The notes: generated by a model not told the origin, from the sequence alone. A DNA stretch of 64,000 nt from a bacterium (GCA_043812655.1 JBDRLW010000009.1:120-64119), one strand, 5' to 3'; shown: positions 4,071-50,967, numbered from the stretch's first letter. A program made the numbers and translations.

Positions 4071-4124
4071 GTAACTTGTTTTAGTTTAGCAAACGTTGGC
4101 AAAAAAATCAAGAAACTCTTTACA

Positions 4125-4274: not shown

Positions 4275-4284
4275 ATAATAATTT

Positions 4285-12380: not shown

Positions 12381-12493
12381 TAACTTCCTCCTAATCAATC
12401 GGTAACGGTTACGATGCCAGTTTCGTCTTTCGGTCACGGTTACGTTACCCTAACCCTAACCGATACTGGTATCGTCACCCTAACCGTTGATCC

Positions 12494-15400
12494 CTATTTC
12501 AACACCGCAACCTTCCCTCTTCCCCCAACACTCCGATCCCCTATTCTCGCTGTCACTTCAAAGGGATAGATCCCGTTCATCACCATGTCCCCTCGCCCAT
12601 TCTTCCCATCCCACTCAACATCATTATATTTATTCCAGATCGATGAGCCTTCACCGTTAGTTGTGCCGTCAATTTCATTCACTAGCGAGCCGGTAATATC
12701 GTAAATGCGGATCCTGACATCGCTAGCGTCGGTCGAGAGCCGATATCTTATTTTCGTCTTCTCTTTATTGGGGTTAAACGGATTGGGGTAATTGGTAACA
12801 TCCGACAAAGTTAGATCTGGTTTAACGGTAAACGACCACGTTTCTGACGTCGCCGCTTCGTTAGTCGAGAGGGCTGTAACTTTCCAGTAGTAAGTGTCCC
12901 TATCAAGTCCAGGATCAAATTCGTGGATGGAGTAGTTGTAGTAATAGAGAGTTGAATCAGCTTTGTCTTGTGAGCCGCTGTTCGGCGATTTAGTAAAGCT
13001 TTGGTTAGCGATCGAGAAAGTATCATTCTTGGCAACATCTATCCTATATTCAGTGGCGTTTCCTTTCTTATGCTTCCATTCAAAGGTGGGACGGACAGAC
13101 TGAACATTATCGGTTTTGTCTGTTGGGGCAACAAGGGTTGGAGCTTCAAAGGTAATAGAATGAGTGATCGGGCTTCTTGTAACTGCGTATGCCGTAGTAA
13201 AATCATAGACACCATCAACATCACCACCGGAAGGCCGCCAACAACCACTACCATCTAACCAATGAAAGGCAAGTCTTTCTCCCGTCATTGGTTTAAATAT
13301 CCCCATCCACTCCCCAGCACCACCTGACATTAATGCAATTTCAGCCTTTCCATCTCCCGTAAAATCACCAGCCGTGATACAAAAGAATTCATTTGACGGG
13401 TCTTGAAAACTAAAACTATTTATTAATGTCCCTGAGTTATTGTATGTATACACATAATTAACCCAACCAACGTATATGGTTGCAATAGGCCCATCCAGGG
13501 CGATTTCATCTATACCGTCTCCGTTAAAATCCCCACAAGTTATTGTTTTAACATTTCTTGGGGTGTTCCAATTCCTATAAGAATTGTTTCCCGCGCTGCC
13601 ATCGGCAATCGAACTGGGTTTAAACAGATAAACAGCCAAGCTGTTTTGGATGGTCATAGCTAACTCATCCATGCCATCCCCATCAAGGTCGCCGGCTGCT
13701 ATTTCATTACCATATCCCTTAAAACTTTTGACTAGAGTCCCTGATGGAAGGCTATAAATATAAACCCAGGAATTCGCGGGATTAACCACGGCCAACTCCT
13801 CAACACCATCGCCGTTAAAATCACCGCCGGTTAAACGAGCGTCTTCAGGCACATCAAAAGAATAAAGCGGGCTGGCAGTCCGATTTCTTGGGTCATAGAT
13901 CACGACATCATCGTTGGCTTGATTCCTTAAAGCCACAAACATCGGCTTCTCATTCCCCTGATAATCGACTAGAGTGGTAAATAACATCCAGTCAACACTT
14001 GTATTCCAGTAACTGGCAGAATTAAACGATTTCCCGTCTTTAGCTACCTTAATAACCCTGACATACTCGTTCGCTCCAGAATTATCATCGATCATTATCG
14101 CTTCATCCCGACTTTTCACCCTTACTTTCTTGGTCGCGGTCAAAGTTGCGACATTTAACAACGCGTCATTCACAGTGGCCAAAGCCGAATATCTCCCAAC
14201 AGGAACAAACGATCCAGAATTGTTTTTTAGGTCCCAATTAACTTCAGCGCCAACATTTGGGAAACTCCTGACCACATTTCCACCGGCATCCCTAATCTCT
14301 AAATCTATCCTGGTCGCACCTGAAACATTGCAATTAATCGTAGTAGAATTATTAATCCCGTCTGGGAAAGCAATATTACGGCTAAAAGCTATGTCGTTAA
14401 TAGTCGGCGGCGTATTATCAACCGTAAAAGAATATGTCGAGCTGGTGCTTGAATTGCCAACCGCATCAACGGCCACAATGTAATAATTATGGCTCCCCTC
14501 ACTTATATTCGCCCCCGGACTCCATGTCCACGAAAGATTAATTGATGGCGAAGAGGTATATTTTAAACCTCCATCAACATAGACTGAAAAGGTTGAAGAT
14601 TCATTGGCGCTGGCAGAAAATGTTATTGAATCATAATTCCCATCCGCATTTCCAGGGCTAATAGCATTTGGGGAAACAGAAACACTAGAAATCACAGGAG
14701 AATCAAGGTCTATTAAAACCGAACCCGAAGACCCCCAATTACCAATATTGCCAGCCACGTCTTTAGCTTTAATGGAGGCATAATAAGTTCCGCTGCTTAA
14801 ATCTCTGTTGGTTGTCCAGGCGTTGACGTTGCCAACCCATGTTTCACTAACAATATTCCCTCCACCACTGGTCGTTCCAATTTGTATATAGTACCCATCT
14901 ATTCCTGAAAGAGAATCAGAACTCGGCGCCCAGCTCCAGGTCGGGCGCCTATTTGTTGTTGGGGTGGTTGTTGATGGGGTATAAACTGAAGGTCTAATTG
15001 GATCCCGACAATAAGTTTTAGAATATGTCGTTTGGTTGCCGGCATTATCCCAAACCCTGACAAACAATGTCCGGGGTCCCGTGCTCGCATGCGTAGTTGA
15101 CGCCGATGTCGCGGTATTACAACCAGCGGGATCATTCGTCGGCCAATTATCCCAACTCCATTTAAACCCTCGATAATCAGAGCCACCTGTGTCAGATAAG
15201 CTTATGGTTATCTGGTTATCCGAAATATACCAGGCATCCGCCGCTTGGCCGCTAAAAGTCGCCGTTGGCGGAGTGTAATCACGTTTATAGATCTTTGAAG
15301 TTTGGGTCAGGTTGCCCGCACTGTCCCAGGCATTAACATATAATGTACGCGGCCCTTGGCTAGAGTGAGTCGTCGTGCCGGTAGCAGAAGTATTGCAACC

Positions 15401-18400: not shown

Positions 18401-21400
18401 TTCTGACAGGTTAAAGGCGCGATCGGTAGCGACGATCTTAAAGTATGAGGAACCTGAGAATGAAATTCTCGGTTCCTCATAAACAATTGTATATTCACCC
18501 GCATTTTGCGCTTCAGCGGTTACCAGAGTCGAAATTAAATTACCAGCCAGATCAAACACTGAAACTTCGACCGACGAGTTTTCCGGCAGCTGATATAAGA
18601 GCTTAGCTTGTTTCTTAACATAATCAACCACCAGCGGCTTCGTCGTAATGACCGGCGGAACGTTATCGACTAAGACAGTATTCGTAACTGTCGCGGGATT
18701 GGTGCCATCCGGATCAATTGCTTTAATTTGGAATTCATACGACCCGTCAAAAACACGATATTTGTTGCCAACAGCTGTTGAACCGGTATATTCGGAATTG
18801 AAATCCCCATACCATCTTAAGGCATGTTCACCTTTAGTTTGGACTTCTTCATTGACCAGGATTTTTATCGCCTTCCCTCCCTCGCCAATGATCGCCGCGC
18901 TGACCTTCACATTATCCCTGGCCAGATAATATTTGATCTCGGTAAAACTATTATTCGGATTGACCGGCGCGAAGGGATCAGGTTCGGCGTAGGCGTAAGG
19001 GACAAGAGTTGGTTCGCGGTCGACGACCAGTGGATCGTGAAGCGTGAAACGTGAAACGTTGCCGACATTGTCTACCACGGTCGCTTCTACCGAGTAAGCC
19101 CCCCCAATGAGCTCGTTGCGTGAGCCGCGGCCATCCCATGTCCAGGAACCGAGAGACGAAGAGACGAAAGGACGAAGGGACGATTTATCCGTCGGATAAT
19201 AAAATCCTTCCGTCGGCCCTTCGTGGCTCCTAAACTCTCTCCTCGTCTCTCGTCCATCGTCCTTCGTCACTATCGTTGTTACATACGCCGGCTCGCTAAA
19301 CTTGTACCAAATCTTAGTTGTATCTTTGACACCATCATCATTGGGAGTAAAGGGATTGGGATCGGCATTGAAGCCAATGATTGTTGGCGGTGTGGTATCA
19401 ACAACAGTTTGGCTGATTACATTATTACTAATGTTTCCAGCCTCGTCGATCGCGTAGACCGTGGTAGAGTAAGCTCCGTCGGCCAGGTGTTCATTTAATG
19501 ACTTACTAGTCACAAGACTCCAATCTCCAGTTAGAGTATCTCGGCGATATAGATTAAACCCATCTTTTATCCAAGATAATTCAACTTCTTTGTTGGCTTC
19601 AGCTGAAATCACCTCATCCACCACTCGACTCGCTTCGCTCGCTCGTGGTCCCCCTTCTCCACTTCGTGGAGAAGGTCGAATATTAAAATAGATTTTCCCC
19701 TTCTCCGAACTCCTAACTCCATACTCCACACTATCGTACTTCCCGTCGCCGTTGGGGGAAAAGGCAAAGAGATTTTGGCTAGCTTCGACAGACGGAGCGA
19801 TGGTATCTTTGACGATGGTTACATCACTAATCGTCCTGATATTCTTATCTTTTTCTAAATGGGAAGAGACAAATATATAGTTATTCCCCTCTTGCAATAA
19901 GTTAACATTCTCAAACTTAAAGTTGCCGGCAGCCGCCTCCGCCGTCAACCGCGCGAAATACGGTTCTTCCTTCGCGGGATCTGGAGGCAAATTCTCTGTT
20001 TTAACATATAAGCTAAGAACCGATCCTGGTTCAGCTGTGCCATAAATCGTCACCTTATCTTTATTGGTTATATAGTTATCCGCAAAAACCATTGGGGCAG
20101 AAAGGGAAAATTTGCCGGGCAACAGCGCGTAAGTAGAAAAATGGTCGAGCGGAGCGTAAAAGGCGTATTGGTGTTCACCGTTATTGATTTCCACTTCCTG
20201 CTTATTCCCAGAAACGATCTGCAGATCACCGCCAGCAGTCACTTGATGGATATTCATCGGCAAACCTAAGTTTGTCCCTGGATTTGGCAATGGTTTATTC
20301 ATATCCCAAAGCCCTAGTTTTGGATCGGCTAGGTCGTCAAACGTGTAAACAAAACGCAAAGTCGGACGCTGGTCTACTCCTTCTAATGTACTTGCCCCGA
20401 GCGAAGTCGAGGGGCTGACCGTGAATTTCCAGGGGGAAGGCTTGATCTCCACTATTGGTCCGGATGTCATGATGATCGGCCGGTTACGAATAAATATCTC
20501 GCTCATCGTCACTGGTGTAATCGTCACCAATTTATCTTGGCCAAACGCCCCTTTAGGAAAACTTAGTTCCGCCCGTTTATAAGTACTGTAAACCTGGCCG
20601 CCTGTAGCATCCCTAACCAGCGTTCCGATCGAAATATCTTGGGTAGAAATAAAACTACCTGACCGGAGTAAAACCGTATACTGTCCATTTAACCGTGAAA
20701 CATTCCACCAGGCTAAGCGCCCGTTTTTACCAGTATCGGATCGTTCAATGGCCTGCCAGGTCTTACCGTCAAAATACGATAATTCGTACGGTTCTGACGC
20801 TGATCCTTCGATCTCAACATAGCGAGATTCAGAAGCATCGAGTTTAAGTTTGAGGGTAAAAGTATCGTCCAGCCGCCGGCTATTTTTATTGATCTTAACC
20901 AGCGCGAGATCCCTATTATCACCGCCGGTCTTATCTTTAATATTTATTTCCCAGCTATCAATCACTACATTAGGATTATCAATGGGGGTTACCCCATCAT
21001 TTTTAAACGGATCATATTTTAAAAATGCATATTTTAAAGCCGAGGCTGATTGGTAATCAGGGCTGACTTTGTAAGAGTTAGCTATTTTGATTTCCCGCTT
21101 GCCTAAAAACTCGTTCTCATTAAAATCCAAAGCCATACTATTTATCTTACCGGCCAAAGGCTGTAAAGTATTATCATCACCTGTTGTCCAGGCAACTCCT
21201 ATTGTGTCCAAATCCTCGGCTCCATACGCCGTATTCTTGTCACCGCTCGCGGGATTTATTTTAATGCCAGGAGTATTACTGGCAACCTGATAATTAACAT
21301 CACTAACATAATTTGGAACTTTTAAAAACTGGCCAAAGCTTTGGCTCGCGCTCCAAATACTCTTCCCAACTCCTTTATCAAACCTCACCTGGCCAGTTCC

Positions 21401-24400
21401 AGTCCGGCTATTATTTGCATCAGCTAACCGCGCCCTAACTTCATCCGCGTCTAGTTCCCACCAGGTGCCGGCAGGTGAAGTTCCCGTATATTTTTGGGGA
21501 TTGGCTAAAAGCTCCGCTTTCTTTGCTTTCCAAATATCATCATATTTATTCTGGTCGGTTAGCGGCCAGCTAAATTCAAACGGCGACGGCGGGTTGCCGC
21601 CTGACGCGTAAGTAAGATTTGTATTAATTTTAATGGTTGAGGAGCTAGTCTCGGTAAAATCCCCGCTTTCCGGCTTAGTGATCGGGATAAACTCAAAATA
21701 CTCACCAGAAAGATAGGAGTCGTAACCCACAGAAGAGGCAAGGGAATCTTTATAGCCGATAAGATTTGATTTTTGCGCTTCACTATTTAGCGCCGCAACC
21801 AGATCACCCCAATTTTTCTTCCCTTGCAGATCGGTTTTTAAATCTTTGTATGGCGCGCTAGGTTTCGCCGTCGGATCAGTAAAAAATAATTTACCTGGGA
21901 AACCTAATCCTTTATTAATGTCAGTTAAATACATGGAAAAGTCTTTTGTCCGTTCACTTTCCGGCGTCTTCGCACTTATAAATCCAAACCAAGGGACAAA
22001 GCGGTTAGTAAGGCGGGAATAAGCGATCGGGGCTTCTAATTGATAAGTTAAGGTAAAATACGGGCTTCTCCCAAAGCTTCGGCCATCTGTCCCCCAAGTG
22101 GGCGTAACTTTAAAAATTCCTTTTTCAGATATTTCCGGTGTGCCAACAAGATATTTTGGAACACTCGAGGACAAAGTAGCTATTTGACTCGCTCCTAAAT
22201 AAGAGGATGCGACTGCTGGGTCATCCGTCGTCGTTGACACCTGAAATACGCCGTTAATAAGCGCTGTTATTGGATAATTGACCTTCCCTAAAATACTACT
22301 GACAGCGGGATTAGCTTCAATCGTAACAACATCCAACACCCAGGTCAGGTCCCCGGCCGGGCGAAAAACCAACGTCAAGTCAATCTTATCTACATGGCCA
22401 TCCGGTTCTCCAACCCCGCGCAAAGCCGCATCGTGAAATTGAAGAACATCATATATCTGTTTTACTTCGATGCTCGGTATATTACTAGTTAAACTAAAAG
22501 TTTGAACGTGTTGTTTGGTTGTCCTTTGGCCTTCTCCCTTCCACCCCTGCAGAAAAACATAGTTATATTTTGTATAATAAACCGTAGCCAGCACCTCAAC
22601 ATTGATATCAACCTGCTTAAATCCCCGATGCATCAGCCCGGCAAATGGGACAAAAGGATAAGCGGTAATTAATTGTTTACCGGTGGCCGTTAAAGTATAG
22701 CTAAAATCTTTTGGCGGATGGTACCAGCCAAGCCCCTTGGCTTCAAAATAGTAAGGCGAATCGCCCTGCGCTATCCCATTTTCCCCGATCGGTGAAAGAG
22801 AAACTATTTTGGCGTCGTTCTTAAATTCTGCCAGAGTAATATTATCAATTTCTTTGGTTTCACTCGCTGACCCATCTTTGGCCGCCACATTTAATTTGAT
22901 CTTATACGTTCCACCTGGCACAACCAAGCCGCTGTCAGGATCCGGATAATTTCCCTTCCAGGCAAAAGTTAATTGATTGTTAGGGTTAGTCGTCCCCAGA
23001 ACTTCTGTTCCATTTAAGAGAGTCGCAACATAGTCGCCGTTTTGTTTTTGGACCGTAGCCGTAACAATTGAGTCTTTAGACACGTTGTAAAAGACTGATA
23101 CCCTATCTATTCCGCCTAAAGCGCTGAATTTACGATCGAGCGGCTCAACTTTTAAATTTGAAAGTTCAAATGGTGTTTTGACTTGGACAATGGCTTCATC
23201 TGTTGCCATCCCCACCCCATCGGCCCCTTCCGCTCGCACCCTGACAATATAAGTTCCATTATCAACGTAAGCGCCGGTATCATATTGGCCGTTCCACTCT
23301 AAAGAGTTCGGAGTATTGAGTTCGGAGTTAGGAGTTGGTGAGGTTTTCCCCATGCTTGTCACATCAACTAATTTCTGGCTGGCGGCGTCGATAATGATCG
23401 GTAAATAAGTTTGGGAATATTTGGAAATTCCCAGATAAACATTGTCAGCGGTGATCGATGGCGAGGTTGGGTCTTCGTCAATCTTTGGCGTGATCATTAT
23501 TTGACCGGATGAAATCTTAAAGTCTATTCCGCTCTCTCCCCCAGCCATTGTTTTATCCCAACTTATTAGAGCGTTAGTTGTAGACGGAGAACAATTAACG
23601 GCATTAATATTTTTCAGCTCTCCCCCGATCGCGATAATGCTACCGGTGAATTTGTGGTTAGAACCATTTGACGACCAGCGGAGATGGTAGCCGGCATCAT
23701 CACTCCAGATAAAGTAACCAAGGTCTGCACCAGGTTTGTAGTCCGGTTTGCCGATAAACGGAGCACCAGCAATGTTGGGAAAATATTTGGAGAAAACGAC
23801 CGCCTCATCCACCACTCGACTCGCTTCGCTTGCTCGTGGTCCCCCTTCTCCACTGCGTGGAGAGGGTCGGGAAGGCTTGATAATTTCTATATAAATATTG
23901 GCTGGTTTAATGCTGTTGATAAAACCGAGTGGCAGTTTAACAGAATCGTCACCTTTAAATTCGACCGATGATAGAACAGGATTTAACTTAACATAGGGAT
24001 TTTGAAGTGATGAAGTTGTAAAGCTATCATTATTTACCTTGACCGTTCTCGTCGCGCTAAGTGTTTCACCGTTCTCCTCGTTAACTTCAACTTTAATCGT
24101 GTAATCGCCGTTCGCAAGATTGTTCGTGTACAAATATGCTAATGTCGAATTATTTTGCAGTGGCCTGATGGAAATATTTTTGGGCCCTTGAGGGTCGCGA
24201 TTGGTTTGGGGGACTTCAATGAAATCTGACTGCCAGCCATCAACCCTCACCCCCGTCCCCTCTCCCAAAGGGAGAGGGGTGGAGCTTGTTCCTTTCCTAT
24301 AATATACTCGATAATCCTTAAATGGCTTATCATTTGTCCAGTCGGGATCTATGGCGGTACCGCGGATGGAGATCGTCCCAGCCACTTCCGTATTATCATC

Positions 24401-27400
24401 CAAGGGATATGAGATGACCGGCGCTATCCCATCTTTAACGCATGAGGCGTAAGCGATCCCAACGTTCCCATAATCATCTTCGGCAATGATCTGGAAACGA
24501 TAAGCCCCCTTAGGTTGGTCGCTCCCATTCCAAGCGACATTATTAGCTGCTGTGTTGGAAGCTGGCGCCGAGGGGATCGTCTCCACTAATTGGCCAGTAT
24601 TGGAATTATAGATCTTTATTTTTACGCTTTTTGCGTCTGTAAGGCTGTAAGAAAGATTAGTTTTGTAGGAATTATTCCCTATATTTGATAACACATAAGG
24701 ATTGGTAATTTGCCCGAATATTGAGGGCGGCGTCCGATCGATCCGGACAGCTTCAAGCGTTCGCGGCAGGCTTTCATTACCCGCGTCGTCCCTGGCGATC
24801 ACTTCTACCCGATGGAGGCCATCTTCGGGGCCTTTAGTGAACATGTCGTTGTATTTCCAGGTGTAGGAAGCGAGATAGTTAGGAGTTGGGAGTTCGAAGT
24901 CCCTCGACAGTGCTCGGGGTGGCTGGGATGGCGAGCTTGTCGAGCCATTCGGAGCCGGAAGGGATTGGGCAAGATACGCTGTTGTTGAATTAGTTGTTAG
25001 ATTATTCAGTTTAATAATAACCGTCGATTTTTCGTTTACCTTCGCGGTTAATCCTAGCTCCGTAGTATTGGAAGTCATTGGATTGGGTGAAACGTCAACA
25101 CCTAAAACTGTTGGCGGCGTAGCGTCGATCGTGATCTGCGTCTGGCTGGTTACGGAGTTTCCAGCTAGGTCGGAGGCGGTAATTTTAATTATGTAATTAC
25201 CGTCTACGACCCTCACCCCTGTCCCCTCTTCGCCACTCCAGTTGAAAAAGTTTTCCCCTTTAGAAATCGAGTCGGTGGTGGCGATAGTAGTTACAAGTTG
25301 GTCTTCGGTCTGTGGTCTTTGGTCTGTAGTTTTGTAGAGTTCGCAACGGACAGAGGCGAGGTTTGGCGAGGCTTCGTCGGAAGAAGTGTATTTGATAATC
25401 GCAGGCGCCCTGGGAGAGTATGGTTGCAACGGCTGGATCGCCAGAGTTGGCGCTTGGGTGTCGATAATAACATTAATAACCGCTTGCGAGACGCCAACGT
25501 TACTATTAGCGGTCACAACCAACGAATATTCGCCATCGGGCAATGTTTCTTTTGGTGTATATTCAAAATGAAGATGTTTATCATAATCTCCGCCGCTGAT
25601 CGTCGCCTTCACGTCCGAGGTAACATCAACCTCTTCAGTCCCATTGATCATTTTAGCAGTTGTTATTTCCAGCCCGTTTATCGCGTCTTCGCTGTACGTG
25701 GCTAACCCAAAATCACCGCTAAATGCTGGCTTATTATTTTTAGTATACGTTCCAGGGAGCGGCTTAAGGTTGGAGGCTACAAATGGGATGGTGTTAAGTA
25801 TTATCTTTAAAAGCTGGTTGGAGGTATAACCGACTTTGTTTTTTCCACGGAAAGCAAGGACGTTCTGGCCTTCTGCCAGCTTCAAGCCATCGACACTAAA
25901 ATGTCCCCATTCATCTATATTGGTAATGTTTTTCCAGGCGGCAAAGTTTTCCGAATACTGGAAATACTGCATTTTCTTCGGCATAAAGTCGCGCAGGACG
26001 CCTTCTATTTTAGTTGGAGCCTCTTTAACAGTAATTGCAGTAATCTGCTGGTTTTTCCCGTCGATCACTACCGGTAAAGCGGTCGGATCTTTTCCGGCAA
26101 AAGTATAGCCTTTAACCTCTACGGTATGGGTTGTGCTCAAGGTCGTTATTTTCCCATCCGCTTCTTTTGTTTGGTTAGTCAATAAAACTAATGCTTGCGG
26201 CTTAACAGAGGAGGTCGTTGATGAACCAACGTCTGGCTTATCGAATAAGGCTTGTTCTAATAAGCTGGGATCGCCATCAAGGACTATTTTGTCTTTCATG
26301 GTGATATGAGCAAACATAAATCCCAAGGCTCCATCCTCCTGATCAACGGTAGCAAAATTAGCTACCGCCGCGACAGCTATTCCAATATAAGTAACCGCTC
26401 TGACCGGAGCAGGTAAAAATTGGAACGCAATATCGAGGCCTGCAGGGATGATATGTTCCAATGCCCCCAATTGCGGGCTTCTCATCGTATAGGTAAATCG
26501 TTTTGCATTGGCTAAATTAGCAATCCCTTCCCCTAATTGACTGGATCTCTCTCCCACCAAATCACCGTCACCGAAAAACGGATAACCGGTTAACATTGTA
26601 AAATATGATCCCATAAATCTGCCTTCAAAATTGTCTAGTTCGGGATTAGCAAAAACATTGGCTATACTCGCCATCATTAAAGATATGGGGTTCAATCCCA
26701 CTAAAAATGTTCCCGCCTGATTTAATCTCCAGGGAACGGGCACACCTCTTCCGGCAATTAGACGCTGTTTAACCGGTGTATAACTTCCGAAATCCGCAGA
26801 ATTTAAATTTCGTATAAAATCACTATCCGGCAGTAAATCCATAAGAGCAGGTGACTTATAACGATTCATAAAAGCACGCACCCCGGCATTAACGCTTGAC
26901 GAAACAAGACTATACGCGCCGACAACAGCAAAATATTTGGACAACTCGTCATTGCCATTCATCGCGTAATAAACAGATAACCCAATTCCTCCCAGAAAGA
27001 CTACTCCCTCGTAGAAATGTATTTCCTGTGTATTTCTGGCATAAGAAGCCCCACCAGCTCCCGTGTGCGGAGTATCTATCGTAATAAATTTTTCAATATC
27101 ATCTTGATAATACCGATTCCCCCGCTGGTCTTTACCATACATATATGACATGACTGCGAGCCCCCCCATGGAGTGCCCAAGAACTATGAATTTTTTGGGG
27201 ATCTCGTTGTCAGGGCCTGTTGAATCAATTGGAAATCTTTTTGGTTTACTCAAACTACCTGGCCCATAATCATGGAACCATATTTTAAAATCTTCTTTTG
27301 CTTGTTCAAGCCAGCTATTACCAGTTCCATTTTGACCATTATCTAATCGTTTAGTAATTTCCCATGGTTTTCTTTGGTTCCCATTATCTCCGATATCATC

Positions 27401-27706
27401 ATTTTTTTTACTTACTGCCTCTGGGTTATTATATGTTCGATCACCAAATTCCCAACCCTCTTTTTCGATATTGAGAAATTGATTGGAAAACTCATATCTA
27501 TAAACATATCCATTAAGACCTGCTTCTTTTGTTAAATAATCATACACCTTATCAAAGCACTTATGGTCATCGCCAATACCATGAACAAGTATTATTAAAT
27601 GATTTTTTGCATAGGCAATATCATTATTATCAATCGCACCGCAGGCAATTGAAGCCGAATAAATCAAAACCAGTATTAAAAATACAGAAAATCGAAAACC
27701 CTTCAT
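12494..27706 (-). CDS. giant secreted multidomain surface protein (5,070 aa)
   Basis: Uninterrupted 15,213-nt ORF with an N-terminal signal peptide, an alpha/beta-hydrolase head, many Ig/FlgD-Ig-like modules, FG-GAP repeats and a C-terminal sorting-type domain. Its ATG overlaps the stop of the upstream gene (ATGA). Confidence 0.85.
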   Translation of the reverse strand: MKGFRFSVFLILVLIYSASIACGAIDNNDIAYAKNHLIILVHGIGDDHKCFDKVYDYLTKEAGLNGYVYRYEFSNQFLNIEKEGWEFGDRTYNNPEAVSKKNDDIGDNGNQRKPWEITKRLDNGQNGTGNSWLEQAKEDFKIWFHDYGPGSLSKPKRFPIDSTGPDNEIPKKFIVLGHSMGGLAVMSYMYGKDQRGNRYYQDDIEKFITIDTPHTGAGGASYARNTQEIHFYEGVVFLGGIGLSVYYAMNGNDELSKYFAVVGAYSLVSSSVNAGVRAFMNRYKSPALMDLLPDSDFIRNLNSADFGSYTPVKQRLIAGRGVPVPWRLNQAGTFLVGLNPISLMMASIANVFANPELDNFEGRFMGSYFTMLTGYPFFGDGDLVGERSSQLGEGIANLANAKRFTYTMRSPQLGALEHIIPAGLDIAFQFLPAPVRAVTYIGIAVAAVANFATVDQEDGALGFMFAHITMKDKIVLDGDPSLLEQALFDKPDVGSSTTSSVKPQALVLLTNQTKEADGKITTLSTTHTVEVKGYTFAGKDPTALPVVIDGKNQQITAITVKEAPTKIEGVLRDFMPKKMQYFQYSENFAAWKNITNIDEWGHFSVDGLKLAEGQNVLAFRGKNKVGYTSNQLLKIILNTIPFVASNLKPLPGTYTKNNKPAFSGDFGLATYSEDAINGLEITTAKMINGTEEVDVTSDVKATISGGDYDKHLHFEYTPKETLPDGEYSLVVTANSNVGVSQAVINVIIDTQAPTLAIQPLQPYSPRAPAIIKYTSSDEASPNLASVRCELYKTTDQRPQTEDQLVTTIATTDSISKGENFFNWSGEEGTGVRVVDGNYIIKITASDLAGNSVTSQTQITIDATPPTVLGVDVSPNPMTSNTTELGLTAKVNEKSTVIIKLNNLTTNSTTAYLAQSLPAPNGSTSSPSQPPRALSRDFELPTPNYLASYTWKYNDMFTKGPEDGLHRVEVIARDDAGNESLPRTLEAVRIDRTPPSIFGQITNPYVLSNIGNNSYKTNLSYSLTDAKSVKIKIYNSNTGQLVETIPSAPASNTAANNVAWNGSDQPKGAYRFQIIAEDDYGNVGIAYASCVKDGIAPVISYPLDDNTEVAGTISIRGTAIDPDWTNDKPFKDYRVYYRKGTSSTPLPLGEGTGVRVDGWQSDFIEVPQTNRDPQGPKNISIRPLQNNSTLAYLYTNNLANGDYTIKVEVNEENGETLSATRTVKVNNDSFTTSSLQNPYVKLNPVLSSVEFKGDDSVKLPLGFINSIKPANIYIEIIKPSRPSPRSGEGGPRASEASRVVDEAVVFSKYFPNIAGAPFIGKPDYKPGADLGYFIWSDDAGYHLRWSSNGSNHKFTGSIIAIGGELKNINAVNCSPSTTNALISWDKTMAGGESGIDFKISSGQIMITPKIDEDPTSPSITADNVYLGISKYSQTYLPIIIDAASQKLVDVTSMGKTSPTPNSELNTPNSLEWNGQYDTGAYVDNGTYIVRVRAEGADGVGMATDEAIVQVKTPFELSNLKVEPLDRKFSALGGIDRVSVFYNVSKDSIVTATVQKQNGDYVATLLNGTEVLGTTNPNNQLTFAWKGNYPDPDSGLVVPGGTYKIKLNVAAKDGSASETKEIDNITLAEFKNDAKIVSLSPIGENGIAQGDSPYYFEAKGLGWYHPPKDFSYTLTATGKQLITAYPFVPFAGLMHRGFKQVDINVEVLATVYYTKYNYVFLQGWKGEGQRTTKQHVQTFSLTSNIPSIEVKQIYDVLQFHDAALRGVGEPDGHVDKIDLTLVFRPAGDLTWVLDVVTIEANPAVSSILGKVNYPITALINGVFQVSTTTDDPAVASSYLGASQIATLSSSVPKYLVGTPEISEKGIFKVTPTWGTDGRSFGRSPYFTLTYQLEAPIAYSRLTNRFVPWFGFISAKTPESERTKDFSMYLTDINKGLGFPGKLFFTDPTAKPSAPYKDLKTDLQGKKNWGDLVAALNSEAQKSNLIGYKDSLASSVGYDSYLSGEYFEFIPITKPESGDFTETSSSTIKINTNLTYASGGNPPSPFEFSWPLTDQNKYDDIWKAKKAELLANPQKYTGTSPAGTWWELDADEVRARLADANNSRTGTGQVRFDKGVGKSIWSASQSFGQFLKVPNYVSDVNYQVASNTPGIKINPASGDKNTAYGAEDLDTIGVAWTTGDDNTLQPLAGKINSMALDFNENEFLGKREIKIANSYKVSPDYQSASALKYAFLKYDPFKNDGVTPIDNPNVVIDSWEINIKDKTGGDNRDLALVKINKNSRRLDDTFTLKLKLDASESRYVEIEGSASEPYELSYFDGKTWQAIERSDTGKNGRLAWWNVSRLNGQYTVLLRSGSFISTQDISIGTLVRDATGGQVYSTYKRAELSFPKGAFGQDKLVTITPVTMSEIFIRNRPIIMTSGPIVEIKPSPWKFTVSPSTSLGASTLEGVDQRPTLRFVYTFDDLADPKLGLWDMNKPLPNPGTNLGLPMNIHQVTAGGDLQIVSGNKQEVEINNGEHQYAFYAPLDHFSTYALLPGKFSLSAPMVFADNYITNKDKVTIYGTAEPGSVLSLYVKTENLPPDPAKEEPYFARLTAEAAAGNFKFENVNLLQEGNNYIFVSSHLEKDKNIRTISDVTIVKDTIAPSVEASQNLFAFSPNGDGKYDSVEYGVRSSEKGKIYFNIRPSPRSGEGGPRASEASRVVDEVISAEANKEVELSWIKDGFNLYRRDTLTGDWSLVTSKSLNEHLADGAYSTTVYAIDEAGNISNNVISQTVVDTTPPTIIGFNADPNPFTPNDDGVKDTTKIWYKFSEPAYVTTIVTKDDGRETRREFRSHEGPTEGFYYPTDKSSLRPFVSSSLGSWTWDGRGSRNELIGGAYSVEATVVDNVGNVSRFTLHDPLVVDREPTLVPYAYAEPDPFAPVNPNNSFTEIKYYLARDNVKVSAAIIGEGGKAIKILVNEEVQTKGEHALRWYGDFNSEYTGSTAVGNKYRVFDGSYEFQIKAIDPDGTNPATVTNTVLVDNVPPVITTKPLVVDYVKKQAKLLYQLPENSSVEVSVFDLAGNLISTLVTAEAQNAGEYTIVYEEPRISFSGSSYFKIVATDRAFNLSEVTTETFSVVPNQFQVSSNAAPNPFTPNADSLSDQTRISYNLAGGVGPYKVSLTILNAAGATVKRLVDNEQQTAGSYSFYWDGKDDGRKTIDDGRYECVISIQDMLETIHESRLTIHAISTRPTVDISTDIPIFSPNGDGAKDKVIFNYSINYPTFYITGEALVKIEVINSSAEAVWSKIFNNSAGNYVYEYNGLNSYDLPASPAGGPLNPGSYYVKISAQDALGTTAIPKIIPLEVDYSQPEPTDFSINTAYAKLDAEMRVKLNFPEPLAETPTVEVTMSDGTLKTAGLITAEGNNYEYSYIVLTEDAEGPAAVSVKARDLAFNPVLKTKIVTIDKTNPVVSNLSVAPNPAAVPAVNGQASIKFNVSEPLKEAPKVYVTQNGASPQLIPVTGLWSSVSGLCEAKYDVVPGYDGLAQVSIEVADLALNPALFTTSFEVDTVKPVFNNIKSEIGDNPEFTKFAKEGAEVLITFDSSEQLKFNPSVKVNEETAMFSRRFTGQTTEAYEYKYVIKNTDANGNANITISGFDFALNEGTVETSTSSESFVIDLVNPTIAIAEPQIVGAYISNPQSFSTNANPDGTDKPRSTTFYYNLAEKSKVTVKVYKVPDNQATYTKTDFNNDNLIKVLINDVWQEGNQTVAWDGKIDNNLATYDDNNDSYAMPGKYAFIVEGRDRANNLTLKKWGGTVWIQDNILTLREPEQFEYDAAHVNPGGNNPDPHYISPNGNSLDPAQKQAKYYFMIDLASNPTITKPAEKIEAQAVAGDTKKVGKYSIKVYSDSAMANLIRTVVANADAQSGTLTWEFWDGKNDAGQFVTDGTYYMVVDVKDFAGNSAVNNILKRTVVVDNEKPVISNLSAAPYYFSPGNTNSSIKTTTLTYEVADNGNSCEVTVAVYKGANLTKTLFGGWENNGTYLQVWDGTGDSVVDGPYTFKLSSTDQAGNIADIQTKEVVVDMTGPLVVLGGQAEEVWYSADNNITVSLSDNYSYQGFKWSWDDPPSTDPAGCNTSATGTTTHSSQGPRTLYVNAWDSAGNLTQTSKIYKRDYTPPTATFSGQAADAWYISDNQITISLSDTGGSDYRGFKWSWDNWPTNDPAGCNTATSASTTHASTGPRTLFVRVWDNAGNQTTYSKTYCRDPIRPSVYTPSTTTPTTNRRPTWSWAPSSDSLSGIDGYYIQIGTTSGGGNIVSETWVGNVNAWTTNRDLSSGTYYASIKAKDVAGNIGNWGSSGSVLIDLDSPVISSVSVSPNAISPGNADGNYDSITFSASANESSTFSVYVDGGLKYTSSPSINLSWTWSPGANISEGSHNYYIVAVDAVGNSSTSSTYSFTVDNTPPTINDIAFSRNIAFPDGINNSTTINCNVSGATRIDLEIRDAGGNVVRSFPNVGAEVNWDLKNNSGSFVPVGRYSALATVNDALLNVATLTATKKVRVKSRDEAIMIDDNSGANEYVRVIKVAKDGKSFNSASYWNTSVDWMLFTTLVDYQGNEKPMFVALRNQANDDVVIYDPRNRTASPLYSFDVPEDARLTGGDFNGDGVEELAVVNPANSWVYIYSLPSGTLVKSFKGYGNEIAAGDLDGDGMDELAMTIQNSLAVYLFKPSSIADGSAGNNSYRNWNTPRNVKTITCGDFNGDGIDEIALDGPIATIYVGWVNYVYTYNNSGTLINSFSFQDPSNEFFCITAGDFTGDGKAEIALMSGGAGEWMGIFKPMTGERLAFHWLDGSGCWRPSGGDVDGVYDFTTAYAVTRSPITHSITFEAPTLVAPTDKTDNVQSVRPTFEWKHKKGNATEYRIDVAKNDTFSIANQSFTKSPNSGSQDKADSTLYYYNYSIHEFDPGLDRDTYYWKVTALSTNEAATSETWSFTVKPDLTLSDVTNYPNPFNPNKEKTKIRYRLSTDASDVRIRIYDITGSLVNEIDGTTNGEGSSIWNKYNDVEWDGKNGRGDMVMNGIYPFEVTARIGDRSVGGRGKVAVLK
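12497..12811 (-). other. C-terminal FlgD-Ig / T9SS-type-A-like sorting domain of the giant protein
   Basis: LSDVTNYPNPFNPNKEKTKIRYRL...VRIRIYDITGSLVNEI...VEWDGKNGRGDMVMNGIYPFEVTA...GKVAVLK-stop. Confidence 0.6.
13200..13900 (-). other. FG-GAP/VCBS-type repeat region of the giant protein (probable beta-propeller)
   Basis: GGDFNGDGVEELAVV, AGDLDGDGMDELAM, CGDFNGDGIDEIAL, AGDFTGDGKAEIAL and SGGDVDGVYDF. Confidence 0.7.
18052..18083. repeat. heptamer array CGTGAAT-type inside the giant CDS
   Basis: cgtgaatcgtgagtcgtgattcgtgaatcgtt. It shares the 19-mer cgtgaatcgtgagtcgtga with 11231-11249 and is translated as ...SRLTIHAIS. Confidence 0.85.
19612..19678. repeat. 67-nt hairpin-containing repeat, copy A (in frame in the giant CDS)
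   Basis: cctcatccaccactcgactcgcttcgctcgctcgtggtcccccttctccacttcgtggagaaggtcg. It contains a 10-bp perfect stem, ccttctccac/gtggagaagg, and encodes RPSPRSGEGGPRASEASRVVDE. Confidence 0.9.
23803..23869. repeat. 67-nt hairpin-containing repeat, copy B (in frame in the giant CDS)
   Basis: Same unit with 3 substitutions; it encodes the same 22-aa peptide. Confidence 0.9.
26807..27604 (-). other. alpha/beta-hydrolase (lipase/esterase-like) domain of the giant protein
   Basis: HLIILVHGIGDD at aa 36-47 and the nucleophile elbow GHSMGG at aa 177-182 (nt 27161-27178). Confidence 0.7.
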
Positions 27707-29087: not shown

Positions 29088-29252
29088 TGATTTATTGAGC
29101 GGCTTTTAATTGTTGTCTTTTGTGGCAGCAACCTAATCATCACCCTGATCCCCCTTGTTAGAAAAAATGCGTCCAAACTTTGCAAAGCTATTAAGGATTT
29201 TTATGTCCCCTAGGGTATCTGAGCTTATGTTATATTTTAGCATGATTTAAGC
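29088..29252. repeat. direct repeat copy A flanking the KilA-N gene
   Basis: taatcatcaccctgatcccccttgttagaaaaaatgcgtcc...tattttagcatgatttaagc aligns with 30171-30289. The shared gattt(at)tgagcgg lead-in carries an indel. It holds a 36-codon minus-strand ORF at 29133-29243. Confidence 0.85.
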
Positions 29253-30077: not shown

Positions 30078-30151
30078 AATTCACTTCCTGTCCCTCACTT
30101 TAGCCAAAGATTAAACCAGCAAATACTTGAGAAGCAAAAAGAATAATAGAC

Positions 30152-50964: not shown

Positions 50965-50967
50965 AAA

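What the first reader, a model, noticed from the sequence alone, without database searches (positions are those of the whole stretch)
12494..27706. Giant 5,070-aa secreted mosaic protein: lipase-like head, Ig/FlgD-Ig stalk, FG-GAP propeller, sorting-type tail
A single uninterrupted 15,213-nt ORF occupies about a quarter of the window. Read directly from the translation:
- a signal peptide;
- an alpha/beta-hydrolase with LVHGIGDD and a GHSMGG nucleophile elbow;
- about a dozen modules that open with (P)NPF(T/S)PN(G/D)DG or SPN-type strands, the FlgD-Ig/Ig-like pattern;
- a tandem ~75-aa duplication (GFKWSWD..DPAGCNT, about nt 15000-15520);
- four or five GDFxGDGxxE FG-GAP/VCBS repeats;
- an FN3-like unit;
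- a ~100-aa C-terminal domain ending KVAVLK.
An enzymatic head on an adhesin-scale stalk suggests contact-dependent attack, adhesion or envelope remodelling rather than a passive S-layer. Proteins of this size and architecture are essentially uncharacterised. GATC density is mosaic along the gene by hand count (9 in 24301-24900 versus 1 in 21001-21600), which hints at modular assembly from different sources.
Basis: partly seen in the sequence, partly recalled or inferred. Interest (0 to 1): 0.8.

Follow-up and report, generated by a model that had tools for sequence, protein, structure and literature searches.

The report
Giant tethered lipase-like surface protein
This is a real 5,070-residue surface protein of an uncultured Margulisbacteria-type bacterium, with a lipase-like enzyme at one end, a probable self-cleaving break point in the middle and an outer-membrane sorting tag at the other, so it is an unstudied variant of known giant surface proteins, not a new kind of system.

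Summary
The 15,213-nt ORF is real. It lies on the minus strand (12494..27706). It has collinear orthologues of 4,446-5,281 aa in independent metagenomes, so it is not an assembly artefact.

Two details fail:
- The GATC "mosaic" is Poisson noise.
- The tandem duplication has a 91-92 aa period, not 75.

Three features were missed:
- A family-specific core contains a beta-sandwich with an invariant HFS motif in the turn before its last strand. This is the signature of GAIN/ZU5/MAIN autoproteolytic domains.
- A PorV/PorQ-family outer-membrane barrel gene directly follows the giant gene in the window and in three further orthologous loci. It also follows two other CTD-bearing genes in a Saganbacteria contig.
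- A TolB-like lipoprotein gene is translationally coupled upstream.

Best model: Sec export, then T9SS-like CTD/PorV sorting to the cell surface, then self-cleavage into a non-covalently held 2,524-aa enzyme and adhesin payload on a 2,546-aa stalk. Sorting and cleavage are inferred, not shown. The gene also carries in-frame copies of non-coding repeat elements.

The parts
12494..27706 (-). Giant gene, 5,070 codons plus stop
   Evidence: Collinear orthologues P0008 (4,863 aa), P0009 (4,446), P0011 (5,281), P0014 (5,108) and P0020 (5,010). tblastn against L005 covers aa 35-5070 in order.
27635..27706 (-). Sec-type signal peptide, aa 1-24
   Evidence: Read from the translation: MKGFR, then a hydrophobic run, then ACG/A. 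Homologues have equivalent N-termini without the Cys, so it is not a lipobox.
26207..27634 (-). Lipase/PGAP1-like alpha/beta-hydrolase head, aa ~25-500. Candidate oxyanion-hole HG motif (by analogy with LipA, inferred): H42-G43. Nucleophile elbow GHS179MGG (codon 27170-27172). Asp380 (26567-26569). His467 (26306-26308). A helical insertion of ~160 aa lies between TPHTG and DGD.
   Evidence: Pfam PGAP1 and DUF676 pass their cut-offs. Homologues also hit Palm_thioest, PGAP1 and DUF7379. A family profile against the PDB finds B. subtilis LipA-type lipases, BlEst2 and the GPI inositol-deacylase (E 2e-4 to 3e-3). H178, S179 and G181 are invariant, and H42, G43, D380 and H467 nearly so, in 10 sequences. 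The AF2 model was unusable (pLDDT 42.7).
23927..26149 (-). First Ig-like array, aa ~520-1260 (FlgD_ig, Big_13, Big_3_3, Y_Y_Y-like modules)
20555..23926 (-). Family-specific conserved region, aa ~1261-2384. Almost no Pfam assignment (one weak PKD_4 hit at aa ~1479-1508) and no PDB sequence relative. It contains further FlgD-Ig-like W.G...G.Y motifs and a beta-sandwich at aa ~2290-2384.
   Evidence: No Pfam family in segments aa 1501-2600. PDB searches were empty. 45-64% identity to orthologues. AF2 pLDDT is 75-93 for aa ~2110-2640 but below 50 for aa 1880-2106.
20102..20554 (-). GAIN/ZU5/MAIN-like beta-sandwich, aa ~2385-2535, with H2523-F2524-S2525 (nt 20132-20140). Predicted autoproteolysis between F2524 and S2525.
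   Evidence: The motif [HN]FS[TS][YF] was found once in each of 20 family members at the homologous position, including a 7,779-aa distant relative. In a 20-sequence alignment the Ser is invariant and His and Phe are at least 90% conserved. In the AF2 model HFS lies in the turn between the last two strands (E632-640 and E646-651 of the model). Foldseek hits the ankyrin-B ZU5-ZU5-UPA chain 6m3q_E at probability 0.99. Cleavage between F and S of HFS was shown for bacterial MAIN domains (10.64898/2026.05.12.724683).
14042..20101 (-). Long Ig-like stalk, aa ~2536-4555 (about 20 FlgD_ig/Big_13/Big_3_2 modules). Includes the 91-92-aa tandem duplication at nt 15011-15628.
   Evidence: Internal repeats are at most 51% identical in protein, so assembly collapse is unlikely.
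13157..14041 (-). FG-GAP repeat block, aa ~4556-4850. Specific to this lineage.
   Evidence: Pfam FG-GAP 55.2 bits and FG-GAP_3 55.4 bits. The motif is absent from nine orthologues.
12827..13129 (-). Ig/FN3-like beta-sandwich just before the tail, aa ~4860-4960
   Evidence: Sub-threshold Ig_Rha78A_N hit. Conserved in all full-length orthologues.
12497..12826 (-). C-terminal sorting domain (CTD), aa 4961-5070. FlgD-Ig-type, T9SS type-A-like.
   Evidence: The CTD alone matches the CTD ends of the PorU model (42.4 bits, E 2e-11), the T9SS-dependent M6-like model (36.9 bits) and the PorZ model (27.7 bits). TIGR04183 scores 22.4 bits against a cut-off of 23, or 25.4 bits in the longer segment. It is 68-77% identical at the extreme C-terminus of orthologues. 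It also lies at the C-terminus of other giant proteins.
10877..11902 (-). PorV/PorQ-family outer-membrane beta-barrel gene, the cognate partner of the CTD
   Evidence: NCBIfam NF033709 scores 106.5 bits against a cut-off of 90. Orthologues (51-63% identity) directly follow the giant orthologue in L005, L006 and L007; the called genes overlap its end by 4 nt. Two other CTD-bearing ORFs in L003 are each followed by a PorV/PorQ-family gene.
27703..28560 (-). TolB-like beta-propeller lipoprotein gene (Gly-Gly-Cys, a lipobox-like motif read by inspection). Its stop overlaps the giant gene's start by 4 nt.
   Evidence: A profile against the PDB finds TolB (E 6e-4 over 190 residues). Conserved upstream in L001, L002 and L003 (42-60% identity), weakly in L005, absent in L006. 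In L003 it is duplicated together with a head fragment.
11913..12437 (-). 23S_rRNA_IVP four-helix-bundle gene between the giant gene and the PorV-like gene. Probably a cassette insertion, not part of the system.
   Evidence: Pfam PF05635 scores 52.4 bits. It is flanked by 43-nt direct repeats at 11944-11986 and 12399-12441. It is absent between the two genes in L005, L006 and L007.
19612..19678 (-). In-frame repeat element, copy 1 (peptide PSPRSGEGGPRASEASRVVDE, aa ~2678-2698)
   Evidence: 96% identical to the copy at 23803-23869. About 10 extra residues relative to orthologues. Its core motif occurs in 52 metagenome contigs. In the contigs checked it usually lies just 3' of a tmRNA gene.
23803..23869 (-). 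In-frame repeat element, copy 2 (aa ~1281-1301)
   Evidence: About 17 extra residues relative to P0008.
24244..24279 (-). In-frame hairpin element CCCTCACCCC...CCCCTCTCCCAAAGGGAGAGGGG (peptide PLPLGEGTGVRV, aa ~1144-1155)
   Evidence: By my reading of the printed sequences, it differs at two positions from the reverse complement of the intergenic copy at 5690-5725. A shorter intergenic copy of the hairpin lies at 4223-4245. Absent from most orthologues.

Best explanation
The ORF encodes a genuine giant cell-surface protein of a diderm Margulisbacteria/Saganbacteria-type bacterium. It belongs to a rare lineage-restricted family.

**Shown:**
- An N-terminal signal-peptide-like sequence.
- A lipase/PGAP1-class alpha/beta-hydrolase head with a conserved Ser-Asp-His set.
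- Two long arrays of Ig-like modules.
- A conserved central core that ends in a beta-sandwich with an invariant His-Phe-Ser in the turn before its last strand.
- A C-terminal domain homologous to type-A T9SS sorting domains.
- A conserved PorV/PorQ-family outer-membrane barrel gene directly downstream.

**Inferred mechanism:**
1. The protein crosses the inner membrane by Sec.
2. Its C-terminal domain is recognised by the dedicated PorV-like barrel. This takes it across, or fixes it in, the outer membrane. The C-terminus is therefore cell-proximal, and the enzyme head sits at the far end of a filament tens to about 100 nm long.
3. The HFS domain cuts its own chain between F2524 and S2525, as GAIN, ZU5 and bacterial MAIN domains do. 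The N-terminal 2,524-aa payload (lipase-like enzyme plus adhesion modules) stays held non-covalently on the 2,546-aa anchored stalk through the last beta-strand.
4. Binding to a surface plus shear then releases the payload.

The substrate of the head is unknown; an ester or lipid on another cell or particle is most likely.
For: **Real gene**
- The ORF is confirmed.
- Five near-full-length orthologues from separate metagenomes were found. One of them was checked by tblastn and is collinear with the giant.
- Internal repeats are at most 51% identical.

**Taxon and envelope**
- Named homologues are Candidatus Margulisiibacteriota, WOR-1 and Saganbacteria.
- The window also carries LptA/LptC-like and LolA-like genes, as expected of a diderm.

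**Head**
- Pfam and family-profile hits point to lipase, PGAP1 and palmitoyl-thioesterase classes.
- S179, D380, H467 and H42-G43 are conserved.

**HFS domain**
- The motif is invariant.
- In the AF2 model it sits in the turn before the last strand, in a region with pLDDT around 85-92.
- Foldseek gives a ZU5 hit.
- HFS cleavage was shown experimentally in bacterial MAIN domains, which have the same order of signal peptide, enzyme/adhesin, MAIN domain and anchor.
- ZU5 autopeptidase domains have been noted in large bacterial surface proteins that carry lipases.

**Sorting**
- The CTD matches the CTDs of PorU, PorZ and T9SS cargo models.
- A homologous CTD ends other giant proteins.
- A PorV-like gene is adjacent in the window and in three further orthologous loci. 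It is also adjacent to two paralogous CTD-bearing genes.
- No terminator-like site on the coding strand lies between the giant gene and the PorV-like gene.
Against: - **No biochemistry.** Nothing here was tested experimentally.
- **Head.** HMM scores are marginal and its structure model failed (pLDDT 42.7).
- **HFS domain.** There is no sequence-level match to ZU5, GAIN or any Pfam family. The Foldseek list is dominated by generic multi-Ig hits, and the ZU5 hit has low TM scores (0.15 and 0.23).
- **MAIN architecture.** In MAIN proteins the domain normally sits next to the anchor. Here about 2,500 aa lie between them.
- **T9SS.** It is described as restricted to the Bacteroidota/FCB group (abstracts listed). 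No T9SS core gene (SprA/Sov, PorU, PorZ, GldK-N) was seen in the ORFs scanned, which cover about two thirds of the window. TIGR04183 on the CTD alone is 0.6 bit below its cut-off.
- **PorV/PorQ family.** It is broad and includes the Treponema UPF0164 family, given as a faint precomputed hit on the L006 and L007 orthologues.
- **Short forms.** Some relatives end about 150 aa after HFS and lack both stalk and CTD: the 2,649-aa protein in L001 and the 2,947-aa P0013.
Confidence: 0.6

Rival explanations
1. Contact-dependent weapon. The lipase-like head is a toxin delivered to the membranes of neighbouring cells. The translationally coupled TolB-like lipoprotein is its periplasmic immunity protein or chaperone. 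This is the sharper version of the first reader's idea.
For: - An enzyme sits at the distal tip of a very long filament.
- The lipoprotein gene overlaps the giant gene's start and is conserved upstream in L001, L002 and L003.
- In L003 a lipoprotein copy plus a 103-aa head fragment sits upstream of a second, divergent lipoprotein plus a full gene.
- The first pair is the closer one to the window's pair. The lipoproteins are 60% versus 34% identical to the window's, and the heads 60% versus 43%. This resembles displaced toxin/immunity cassettes.
- A subset of MAIN-domain proteins carries putative toxins.
Against: - No known toxin or immunity family was detected.
- The lipoprotein is absent upstream of the orthologue in L006.
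- In polymorphic toxin systems the toxin domain is C-terminal and, from general knowledge, its immunity gene lies downstream. Here the arrangement is reversed.
- No target is known.
Confidence: 0.2
2. A plain structural adhesin or surface coat. The head is a degenerate hydrolase fold used only for binding, HFS is only a structural motif, and no cleavage or release occurs.
For: - About half of the chain is made of Ig-like modules.
- The head HMM scores are marginal.
- There is no sequence-level match to autoproteolytic domains.
Against: - The Ser-Asp-His set and the HG motif are conserved across 26-50% identical homologues.
- The HFS serine is invariant even in relatives that are 24-30% identical over this domain. 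That is more than a structural strand usually requires.
Confidence: 0.15
3. An assembly artefact or chimeric ORF created by collapse or mis-joining at repeated modules.
For: - The gene is repetitive.
- It contains two 96% identical 67-nt elements 4.2 kb apart.
- The source is probably a metagenome assembly (inferred): two window proteins looked up are not on record in the public collection.
Against: - Orthologues of 4,446-5,281 aa exist on independent contigs, one on a 455-kb contig. The one checked by tblastn has the same module order.
- Protein-level repeats are at most 51% identical.
- The flanking genes are syntenic with L006.
Confidence: 0.03

Closest known systems
Bacterial MAIN (microbial GAIN) domain surface proteins, e.g. 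Bacillus subtilis YfkN (Brogan & Rudner, bioRxiv 2026, 10.64898/2026.05.12.724683), and the ZU5 autopeptidase class of Zhang et al. 2012 (PMC3482391)
   Same: The order of parts is the same: signal peptide, enzymatic and adhesion domains, a beta-sandwich with HFS in the turn before the last strand, then a cell-surface anchor. They are large proteins, and hydrolases are the commonest cargo.
   Different: - No sequence-level similarity could be shown.
- The host is a diderm candidate phylum.
- The anchor is a T9SS-like CTD, not a sortase or SLH signal.
- About 2,500 aa of Ig stalk separate the HFS domain from the anchor.
- Cleavage is untested.
Giant T9SS cargo filaments of Bacteroidota: SprB with its cognate SprF (from general knowledge), and the grappling-hook protein GhpA of Aureispira (10.1101/2024.01.29.577165; PDB 9flp)
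   Same: They are multi-thousand-residue Ig-rich filaments with a C-terminal beta-sandwich sorting domain. A dedicated outer-membrane barrel gene lies next to the cargo gene. GhpA's neck appears among the Foldseek hits.
   Different: - The phylum lies outside the FCB group.
- The partner is PorV/PorQ-like, not PorP/SprF-like.
- This protein has an enzymatic head and an HFS domain.
- The T9SS core machinery was not demonstrated.
Small secreted lipases of family I.4 (B. subtilis LipA/EstA) and PGAP1/Bst1 GPI inositol-deacylase
   Same: They share the (V)HG motif, the AHSMGG-type nucleophile elbow, and the order Ser, Asp, His.
   Different: The match E-values are only 1e-4 to 1e-2. The head is about 475 aa, with a helical insertion of ~160 aa and extra C-terminal helices. 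The substrate is unknown.
Giant proteins of Omnitrophota (Archaeovorins; 10.1101/2023.11.21.568195)
   Same: They are giant enzyme-bearing proteins of uncultured bacteria, proposed to act on other cells. The same paper notes that Margulisbacteria are rich in very large genes.
   Different: They are an unrelated family, far larger (30,000 aa and more), with different domains and no CTD/PorV pair.
Rickettsia palindromic elements inserted in frame in protein-coding genes (from general knowledge; Ogata et al. 2000)
   Same: Short non-coding palindromic repeats sit in frame inside ORFs, at loop positions, and are polymorphic between orthologues.
   Different: The element sequences are different. 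Here several element types pile up in one surface-protein family. No transposition mechanism is known.

Membership tests
Alpha/beta-hydrolase, lipase/PGAP1-like class | HMM match above the curated cut-off | tested here: met
   PGAP1 scores 25.5 bits against 24.3 and DUF676 24.3 against 20.3 on the 600-aa head. On the 2,600-aa segment the same hits fall just below. Homologue P0001 passes Palm_thioest, PGAP1 and DUF676.
Alpha/beta-hydrolase, lipase/PGAP1-like class | Nucleophile elbow G-x-S-x-G, with acid and His following in that order, conserved in relatives | tested here: met
   GHS179MGG. H178, S179 and G181 are invariant; D380 and H467 are at least 90% conserved in 10 sequences.
Alpha/beta-hydrolase, lipase/PGAP1-like class | Alpha/beta-hydrolase fold | tested here: inconclusive
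   The AF2 model has pLDDT 42.7 and is unusable, although strands and helices alternate in the first ~210 residues. A profile against the PDB finds only lipases and PGAP1, at E 2e-4 to 3e-2.
Alpha/beta-hydrolase, lipase/PGAP1-like class | Esterase or lipase activity | not testable with these tools
   Needs an enzyme assay.
T9SS cargo (type-A CTD) | N-terminal Sec signal peptide | tested here: met
   By inspection of aa 1-24. No predictor was available.
T9SS cargo (type-A CTD) | C-terminal ~80-100-aa beta-sandwich that matches TIGR04183 / PF18962, at the extreme C-terminus | tested here: inconclusive
   On the CTD alone TIGR04183 scores 22.4 bits against a cut-off of 23. In the longer segment it scores 25.4 bits. 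Pfam Por_Secre_tail scores 21.8-23.8 bits against 27. There are clear local matches to the CTD ends of the PorU (E 2e-11), M6-like and PorZ models. The paralogous CTDs in L003 pass, at 25.7 and 33.9 bits.
T9SS cargo (type-A CTD) | Genome encodes the T9SS core (SprA/Sov, PorU, PorZ, PorV, GldK-N/PorK-N) | not testable with these tools
   Only a PorV/PorQ-family gene was seen. No other T9SS family was found among the window ORFs scanned. The rest of the genome is not available. No paper in the library links Margulisbacteria to T9SS.
T9SS cargo (type-A CTD) | Host belongs to the Bacteroidota/FCB group | tested here: not met
   All named relatives are Margulisiibacteriota, WOR-1 or Saganbacteria. 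The protein is therefore described as 'T9SS-like sorting', not filed as T9SS cargo.
GAIN / ZU5 / MAIN autoproteolytic domain | H-x-S/T motif in the beta-turn before the last strand of a beta-sandwich | tested here: met
   H2523-F2524-S2525 lies between strands E632-640 and E646-651 of the model, in a confident region. The Ser is invariant; His and Phe are at least 90% conserved.
GAIN / ZU5 / MAIN autoproteolytic domain | Sequence or fold similarity to known members | tested here: inconclusive
   No Pfam or PDB sequence hit. There is one Foldseek hit to ankyrin-B ZU5-ZU5-UPA (probability 0.99, TM 0.15 and 0.23) among generic Ig hits. The domain could not be searched on its own.
GAIN / ZU5 / MAIN autoproteolytic domain | Domain order: signal peptide, enzyme/adhesion domains, autoproteolytic domain, anchor | tested here: met
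   The order is met. An unusually long stalk lies between the domain and the anchor.
GAIN / ZU5 / MAIN autoproteolytic domain | Self-cleavage with the fragments staying associated | not testable with these tools
   Needs protein expression plus Edman sequencing or mass spectrometry.
PorV/PorQ family (neighbouring gene 10877-11902) | HMM match above the cut-off | tested here: met
   NF033709 scores 106.5 bits against 90. The equivalog models for PorV, PorQ and PorV2 all score far below their cut-offs, so it is a family member and not an orthologue of any of them.
FG-GAP / integrin-alpha-type propeller | Repeated FG-GAP units with D-x-D/N-x-D-G calcium-binding-type loops | tested here: met
   FG-GAP scores 55.2 bits and FG-GAP_3 55.4 bits. 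There are 4 clear motifs and 1 degenerate one. About 295 aa is short for seven blades, so a closed propeller was not shown.

The most novel reading that the evidence does not exclude
Margulisbacteria and Saganbacteria, which lie outside the FCB group, run a T9SS-like surface-sorting pathway. In this pathway each giant cargo brings its own PorV-like barrel. This cargo is a spring-loaded 'harpoon': a lipase-like effector with adhesins, held on a ~2,500-aa stalk only by the last strand of a self-cleaved GAIN/ZU5-type domain. It is released by force on contact with another cell. The upstream TolB-like lipoprotein acts as the producer's immunity factor or chaperone.
Probability: 0.2. Interest if true: 0.8.

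Novelty: new variant of a known kind. Interest (0 to 1): 0.6.

Why it matters
Two surveys note that Margulisbacteria are unusually rich in proteins over 5,000 aa, but none has been assigned a function. This locus gives one such family a testable anatomy with three parts: an enzyme head, a predicted self-cleavage site, and a sorting tag with a dedicated outer-membrane partner.

If the CTD/PorV pair works, T9SS-type sorting, or an ancestral form of it, extends beyond the Bacteroidota/FCB group into the sister lineage of Cyanobacteria. If HFS cleavage occurs, force-releasable GAIN-type domains also operate on the outer membrane of diderms, and in the middle of giant filaments.

The in-frame non-coding repeat elements show how tolerant such filaments are of insertions. 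They may also contribute to variation in these proteins.

Tried and rejected
**Searches that failed or found nothing**
- The full-length homologue search failed: too long, then timed out.
- The AF2 model of the head from a 7-sequence alignment was unusable (pLDDT 42.7), so no fold search was run on it.
- Sequence searches of the head, the core and aa 1305-1800 against the PDB gave nothing specific.
- The HFS-domain profile gave no ZU5 or GAIN hit against the PDB, Pfam or the 5.8-billion-protein set.
- Exact look-up of two window proteins found no source contig. The taxon therefore rests on homologues alone.

**Ideas rejected**
- GATC mosaic: the dispersion is Poisson.
- Assembly collapse at repeats: protein-level repeats are at most 51% identical, and independent orthologues of similar length exist.
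- An N-terminal lipoprotein anchor for the giant protein: the Cys at position 22 is not conserved.
- The IVP genes as part of the system: they are absent from the orthologous loci.
- DGR involvement was considered because Avd belongs to the IVP family. No template/variable repeat pair appeared among the direct repeats, but a reverse transcriptase was not searched for.


Full report
**1. The observation**

The window holds one uninterrupted ORF at 12494..27706. It is on the minus strand, starts with ATG and encodes 5,070 aa.
- LVHGIGDD at aa 40 and GHSMGG at aa 177.
- GFKWSWD and DPAGCNT, each twice.
- Four GD(F/L)xGDG motifs plus one degenerate copy.
- KVAVLK at the C-terminus.

- PGAP1 (25.5 bits, cut-off 24.3) and DUF676 (24.3 bits, cut-off 20.3) on the head.
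- FlgD_ig, Big_13 and Big_3_x modules over aa ~700-1250 and ~2700-4550.
- FG-GAP and FG-GAP_3 at about 55 bits each, at aa ~4630-4690.
- FlgD_ig and Por_Secre_tail on the last ~100 residues.

Two details do not hold. First, the tandem duplication has a period of 91-92 aa (aa 4027-4140 versus 4118-4232, 51% identity), not ~75. Second, the GATC 'mosaic' is not above chance. The two hand counts are right, but over 600-nt bins the mean is 3.84 and the variance 4.22.

**2. It is a real gene of a rare family**

An exhaustive HMMER search with aa 1501-2700 against 1.84 billion representative proteins found only 94 hits. Among them are proteins of 4,863, 4,446, 5,281, 5,108 and 5,010 aa. Read through, these share the head, the first Ig array, the core, the long stalk and a nearly identical C-terminus ending GKIAVLK.

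tblastn of the giant against the 455-kb contig that carries P0009 covers aa 35-5070 in order. Protein-level internal repeats are at most 51% identical. Collapse or chimerism is therefore very unlikely.

Named relatives are Candidatus Margulisiibacteriota, candidate division WOR-1 and Candidatus Saganbacteria. The window itself is ordinary chromosome. It carries pyruvate:ferredoxin oxidoreductase, RecR, FtsK and a tRNA cluster. It also carries LolA-like and LptA/LptC-like genes, which indicate a diderm envelope. Two surveys of giant proteins list Margulisbacteria among the phyla richest in proteins over 5,000 aa, without assigning any function.

**3. The head**

Across ten homologues that are 26-50% identical to the giant over the head:
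- H178, S179 and G181 (the nucleophile elbow) are invariant.
- H42-G43, which I read as the oxyanion-hole motif by analogy with LipA, D380 and H467 are at least 90% conserved.

A profile of these heads searched against the PDB returns only lipases of the B. subtilis LipA type, BlEst2, the GPI inositol-deacylase (PGAP1/Bst1) and Burkholderia-type lipases, at E 2e-4 to 3e-2. Homologues also pass Palm_thioest and PGAP1.

The AF2 model was poor (pLDDT 42.7), so the fold was not confirmed structurally. A predicted helical insertion of about 160 aa lies between the TPHTG strand and the Asp, and may be a lid. I regard a lipase/esterase-class hydrolase as well supported. Its substrate is unknown.

**4. 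The missed core and the HFS motif**

Residues ~1261-2384 have almost no Pfam assignment (one weak PKD_4 hit) and no PDB sequence relative. Yet the stretch from aa ~1885 to ~2680 is the most conserved part of the family.

AF2 with a 19-sequence alignment gave a confident model for aa ~2110-2640 (pLDDT 75-93). It consists of beta-sandwiches. In the last of them, H2523-F2524-S2525 lies in the turn between the final two strands.

The motif [HN]FS[TS][YF] occurs once in each of 20 family members at the homologous position, including a 7,779-aa distant relative. In a 20-sequence alignment that reaches down to 25% identity, the Ser is invariant and His and Phe are at least 90% conserved.

This is the defining geometry of GAIN, ZU5 and Nup98-type autoproteolytic domains:
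- Brogan and Rudner showed that bacterial 'MAIN' domains cleave between F and S of HFS. MAIN proteins have the order signal peptide, enzyme/adhesion domains, MAIN domain, anchor.
- Zhang et al. noted ZU5 autopeptidase domains in large bacterial surface proteins that carry lipases.
- Foldseek with the whole 811-residue model is dominated by generic multi-Ig hits. It does include ankyrin-B ZU5-ZU5-UPA at probability 0.99.

No sequence-level link to ZU5 or GAIN could be made. Self-cleavage is therefore an inference, which I put at about 0.55.

**5. The tail and its partner**

Scanned alone, the last 110 residues match the C-terminal domains inside these NCBIfam models:
- PorU (42.4 bits, E 2e-11).
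- A T9SS-dependent M6-like protease (36.9 bits).
- PorZ (27.7 bits).
- TIGR04183, which scores 22.4 bits against a cut-off of 23.

The same domain sits at the extreme C-terminus of all full-length orthologues and of other giant proteins.

The gene downstream in the window (10877-11902) is a PorV/PorQ-family outer-membrane barrel (NF033709, 106.5 bits, cut-off 90). Its orthologues (51-63% identity) directly follow the giant orthologue in three independent loci, L005, L006 and L007. There the called genes overlap the end of the giant gene by 4 nt.

In the Saganbacteria contig L003, two other large ORFs end in a homologous CTD. Each is followed by a PorV/PorQ-family gene. This repeated pairing argues that the CTD is a working sorting signal read by a dedicated barrel.

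Whether a full T9SS exists in this phylum could not be tested. T9SS is described as confined to Bacteroidota/FCB, and no paper in the library links it to Margulisbacteria. I therefore call it T9SS-like sorting and do not file the protein as T9SS cargo.

**6. Other context**

*Upstream gene.* The upstream gene (27703-28560) overlaps the giant gene's start by 4 nt. It encodes a TolB-like beta-propeller lipoprotein. It is conserved upstream in L001, L002 and L003, weakly in L005, and is absent in L006.

*Tandem arrangement in L003.* A lipoprotein copy plus a 103-aa head fragment sits in front of a second, divergent lipoprotein and a full gene. The first pair is closer to the window's pair than the second is. 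This fits a specific head-lipoprotein relationship, but does not prove one.

*Short forms.* L001 and P0013 encode short forms (2,649 and 2,947 aa) that stop about 150 aa after HFS. In L001 a separate ORF follows, with its own signal peptide and a FlgD_ig module.

*FG-GAP block.* It is absent from nine orthologues, which carry a different module at that position. Module swapping near the anchor is therefore real.

**7. Model and rivals**

Best model (confidence 0.6):
1. Sec export.
2. CTD/PorV-like sorting to the cell surface, with the C-terminus cell-proximal.
3. The lipase-like head displayed at the tip of a very long Ig filament.
4. Self-cleavage at F2524/S2525, which leaves a force-releasable 2,524-aa payload.

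Rivals:
- A contact-dependent weapon with the lipoprotein as immunity factor (0.2). This refines the best model and does not contradict it.
- A purely structural adhesin without catalysis or cleavage (0.15).
- An assembly artefact (0.03).

**8. In-frame repeat elements**

The gene contains in-frame copies of non-coding repeats.
- A hairpin element (CCCCTCTCCC-loop-GGGAGAGGGG plus GGGGTGAGGG) occurs at 5690-5725, between ORFs. The hairpin alone occurs at 4223-4245, also between ORFs. Inside the giant gene the element lies at 24244-24279, where it encodes PLPLGEGTGVRV.
- A 67-nt element occurs twice in the gene at 96% identity (19612-19678 and 23803-23869). It adds about 10 and 17 residues relative to orthologues.
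- Orthologues carry related insertions at other positions.
- The core of the 67-nt element occurs in 52 metagenome contigs. In 9 of the 15 contigs scanned with Rfam it lies immediately 3' of a tmRNA gene. Many others show a tRNA-like 3' end just before it.
- Heptamer tandem repeats are shared between the giant gene and the PorV-like gene. One of them adds 7 residues.

This resembles Rickettsia palindromic elements in ORFs and deserves its own study.

**9. Verdict**

The finding is genuine and largely read correctly. It is best described as a new variant of known giant, enzyme-tipped, CTD-sorted surface proteins. It has a probable GAIN/ZU5-type break point and a dedicated PorV-like partner, in a phylum where neither has been described. 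Interest: 0.6.

Noticed in passing
window 24244-24279 and 25210-25232 (inside the giant ORF); 4223-4245 and 5690-5725 (intergenic): A GC-rich hairpin element (CCCCTCTCCC-loop-GGGAGAGGGG, with or without GGGGTGAGGG) occurs between genes. It also occurs in frame inside the giant gene, where it encodes PLPLGEGTGVRV and GEEGTGVRV. Orthologues carry similar PLPxGEGxGVR insertions at other positions.
   Followed up: partly
window 19612-19678 and 23803-23869; loci L008-L059: A 67-nt element (96% identical copies, with an internal hairpin) lies in frame twice in the giant gene. Its 22-nt core occurs in 52 metagenome contigs from groundwater, sediment, soil and lakes. In 9 of the 15 contigs scanned with Rfam it lies immediately 3' of a tmRNA gene; one lies near a group I intron and one between tRNA genes. 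What the element is remains unexplained.
   Followed up: partly
window 18052-18084, 19029-19061 and 25298-25327 (giant gene); 11231-11263 (PorV-like gene); 19703-19732, 57341-57384 and 63952-63981: Tandem heptamer repeats (CGTGAAT-type, CTCCGAA-type, GGTCT(T/G)N-type) sit inside coding regions. A 33-nt stretch is 94% identical between the giant gene and the PorV-like gene. One site adds 7 residues relative to all orthologues. Others change the sequence without changing the length. They are reminiscent of cyanobacterial STRR repeats (from memory).
   Followed up: partly
window 11913-12437 and 28557-29039: Two 23S_rRNA_IVP (four-helix-bundle, Avd-like) genes bracket the TolB-like gene and the giant gene. 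The downstream one is flanked by 43-nt direct repeats (11944-11986 and 12399-12441) and is absent from the orthologous loci, so it looks like an inserted cassette. No reverse transcriptase or DGR was looked for.
   Followed up: partly
window 29107-29252 and 30144-30289, flanking 29262-30077: A KilA-N domain gene is flanked by 146-nt direct repeats (82% identity). This suggests another small inserted cassette.
   Followed up: no
window 50689-50788 and 50825-50924; tRNA-Arg(CCG) at 50890-50965: A perfect 100-nt direct duplication overlaps the first ~35 nt (window coordinates) of the minus-strand tRNA-Arg(CCG) gene. It may be an integration scar. A related 38-nt hairpin copy lies at 51273-51310.
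   Followed up: no
window 52715-54367, repeats at 53429-54189: An ORF of 550 aa contains nine copies of a 66-nt (22-aa) periodic repeat. This is probably a leucine-rich-repeat protein.
   Followed up: no
L003 9042-17843 (Ca. Saganbacteria JACRPM010000005): A tandem arrangement: a TolB-like gene, a 103-aa fragment of the hydrolase head, a second divergent TolB-like gene, then a full giant gene. The first lipoprotein and head pair is closer to the window's pair than the second is. This resembles a displaced cassette.
   Followed up: partly
L001 7785-15734 and 15826 onward (WOR-1 MEUB01000012): A short form of the family (2,649 aa, equivalent to giant aa 1-2677) ends about 150 aa after the HFS motif. 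It is followed by a separate ORF with its own signal peptide and a FlgD_ig module. This suggests gene fission or fusion between the payload and the stalk.
   Followed up: partly
window 30318-31574 and 31575-32639: Two unannotated envelope genes lie between the DUF3108-like gene and the TolB-like gene. One is a 418-aa protein whose sequence ends in Phe, a feature I associate with outer-membrane barrels. The other is a 354-aa protein with a lipoprotein-like N-terminus and a weak TPR hit. Both are absent from the syntenic locus L006.
   Followed up: no
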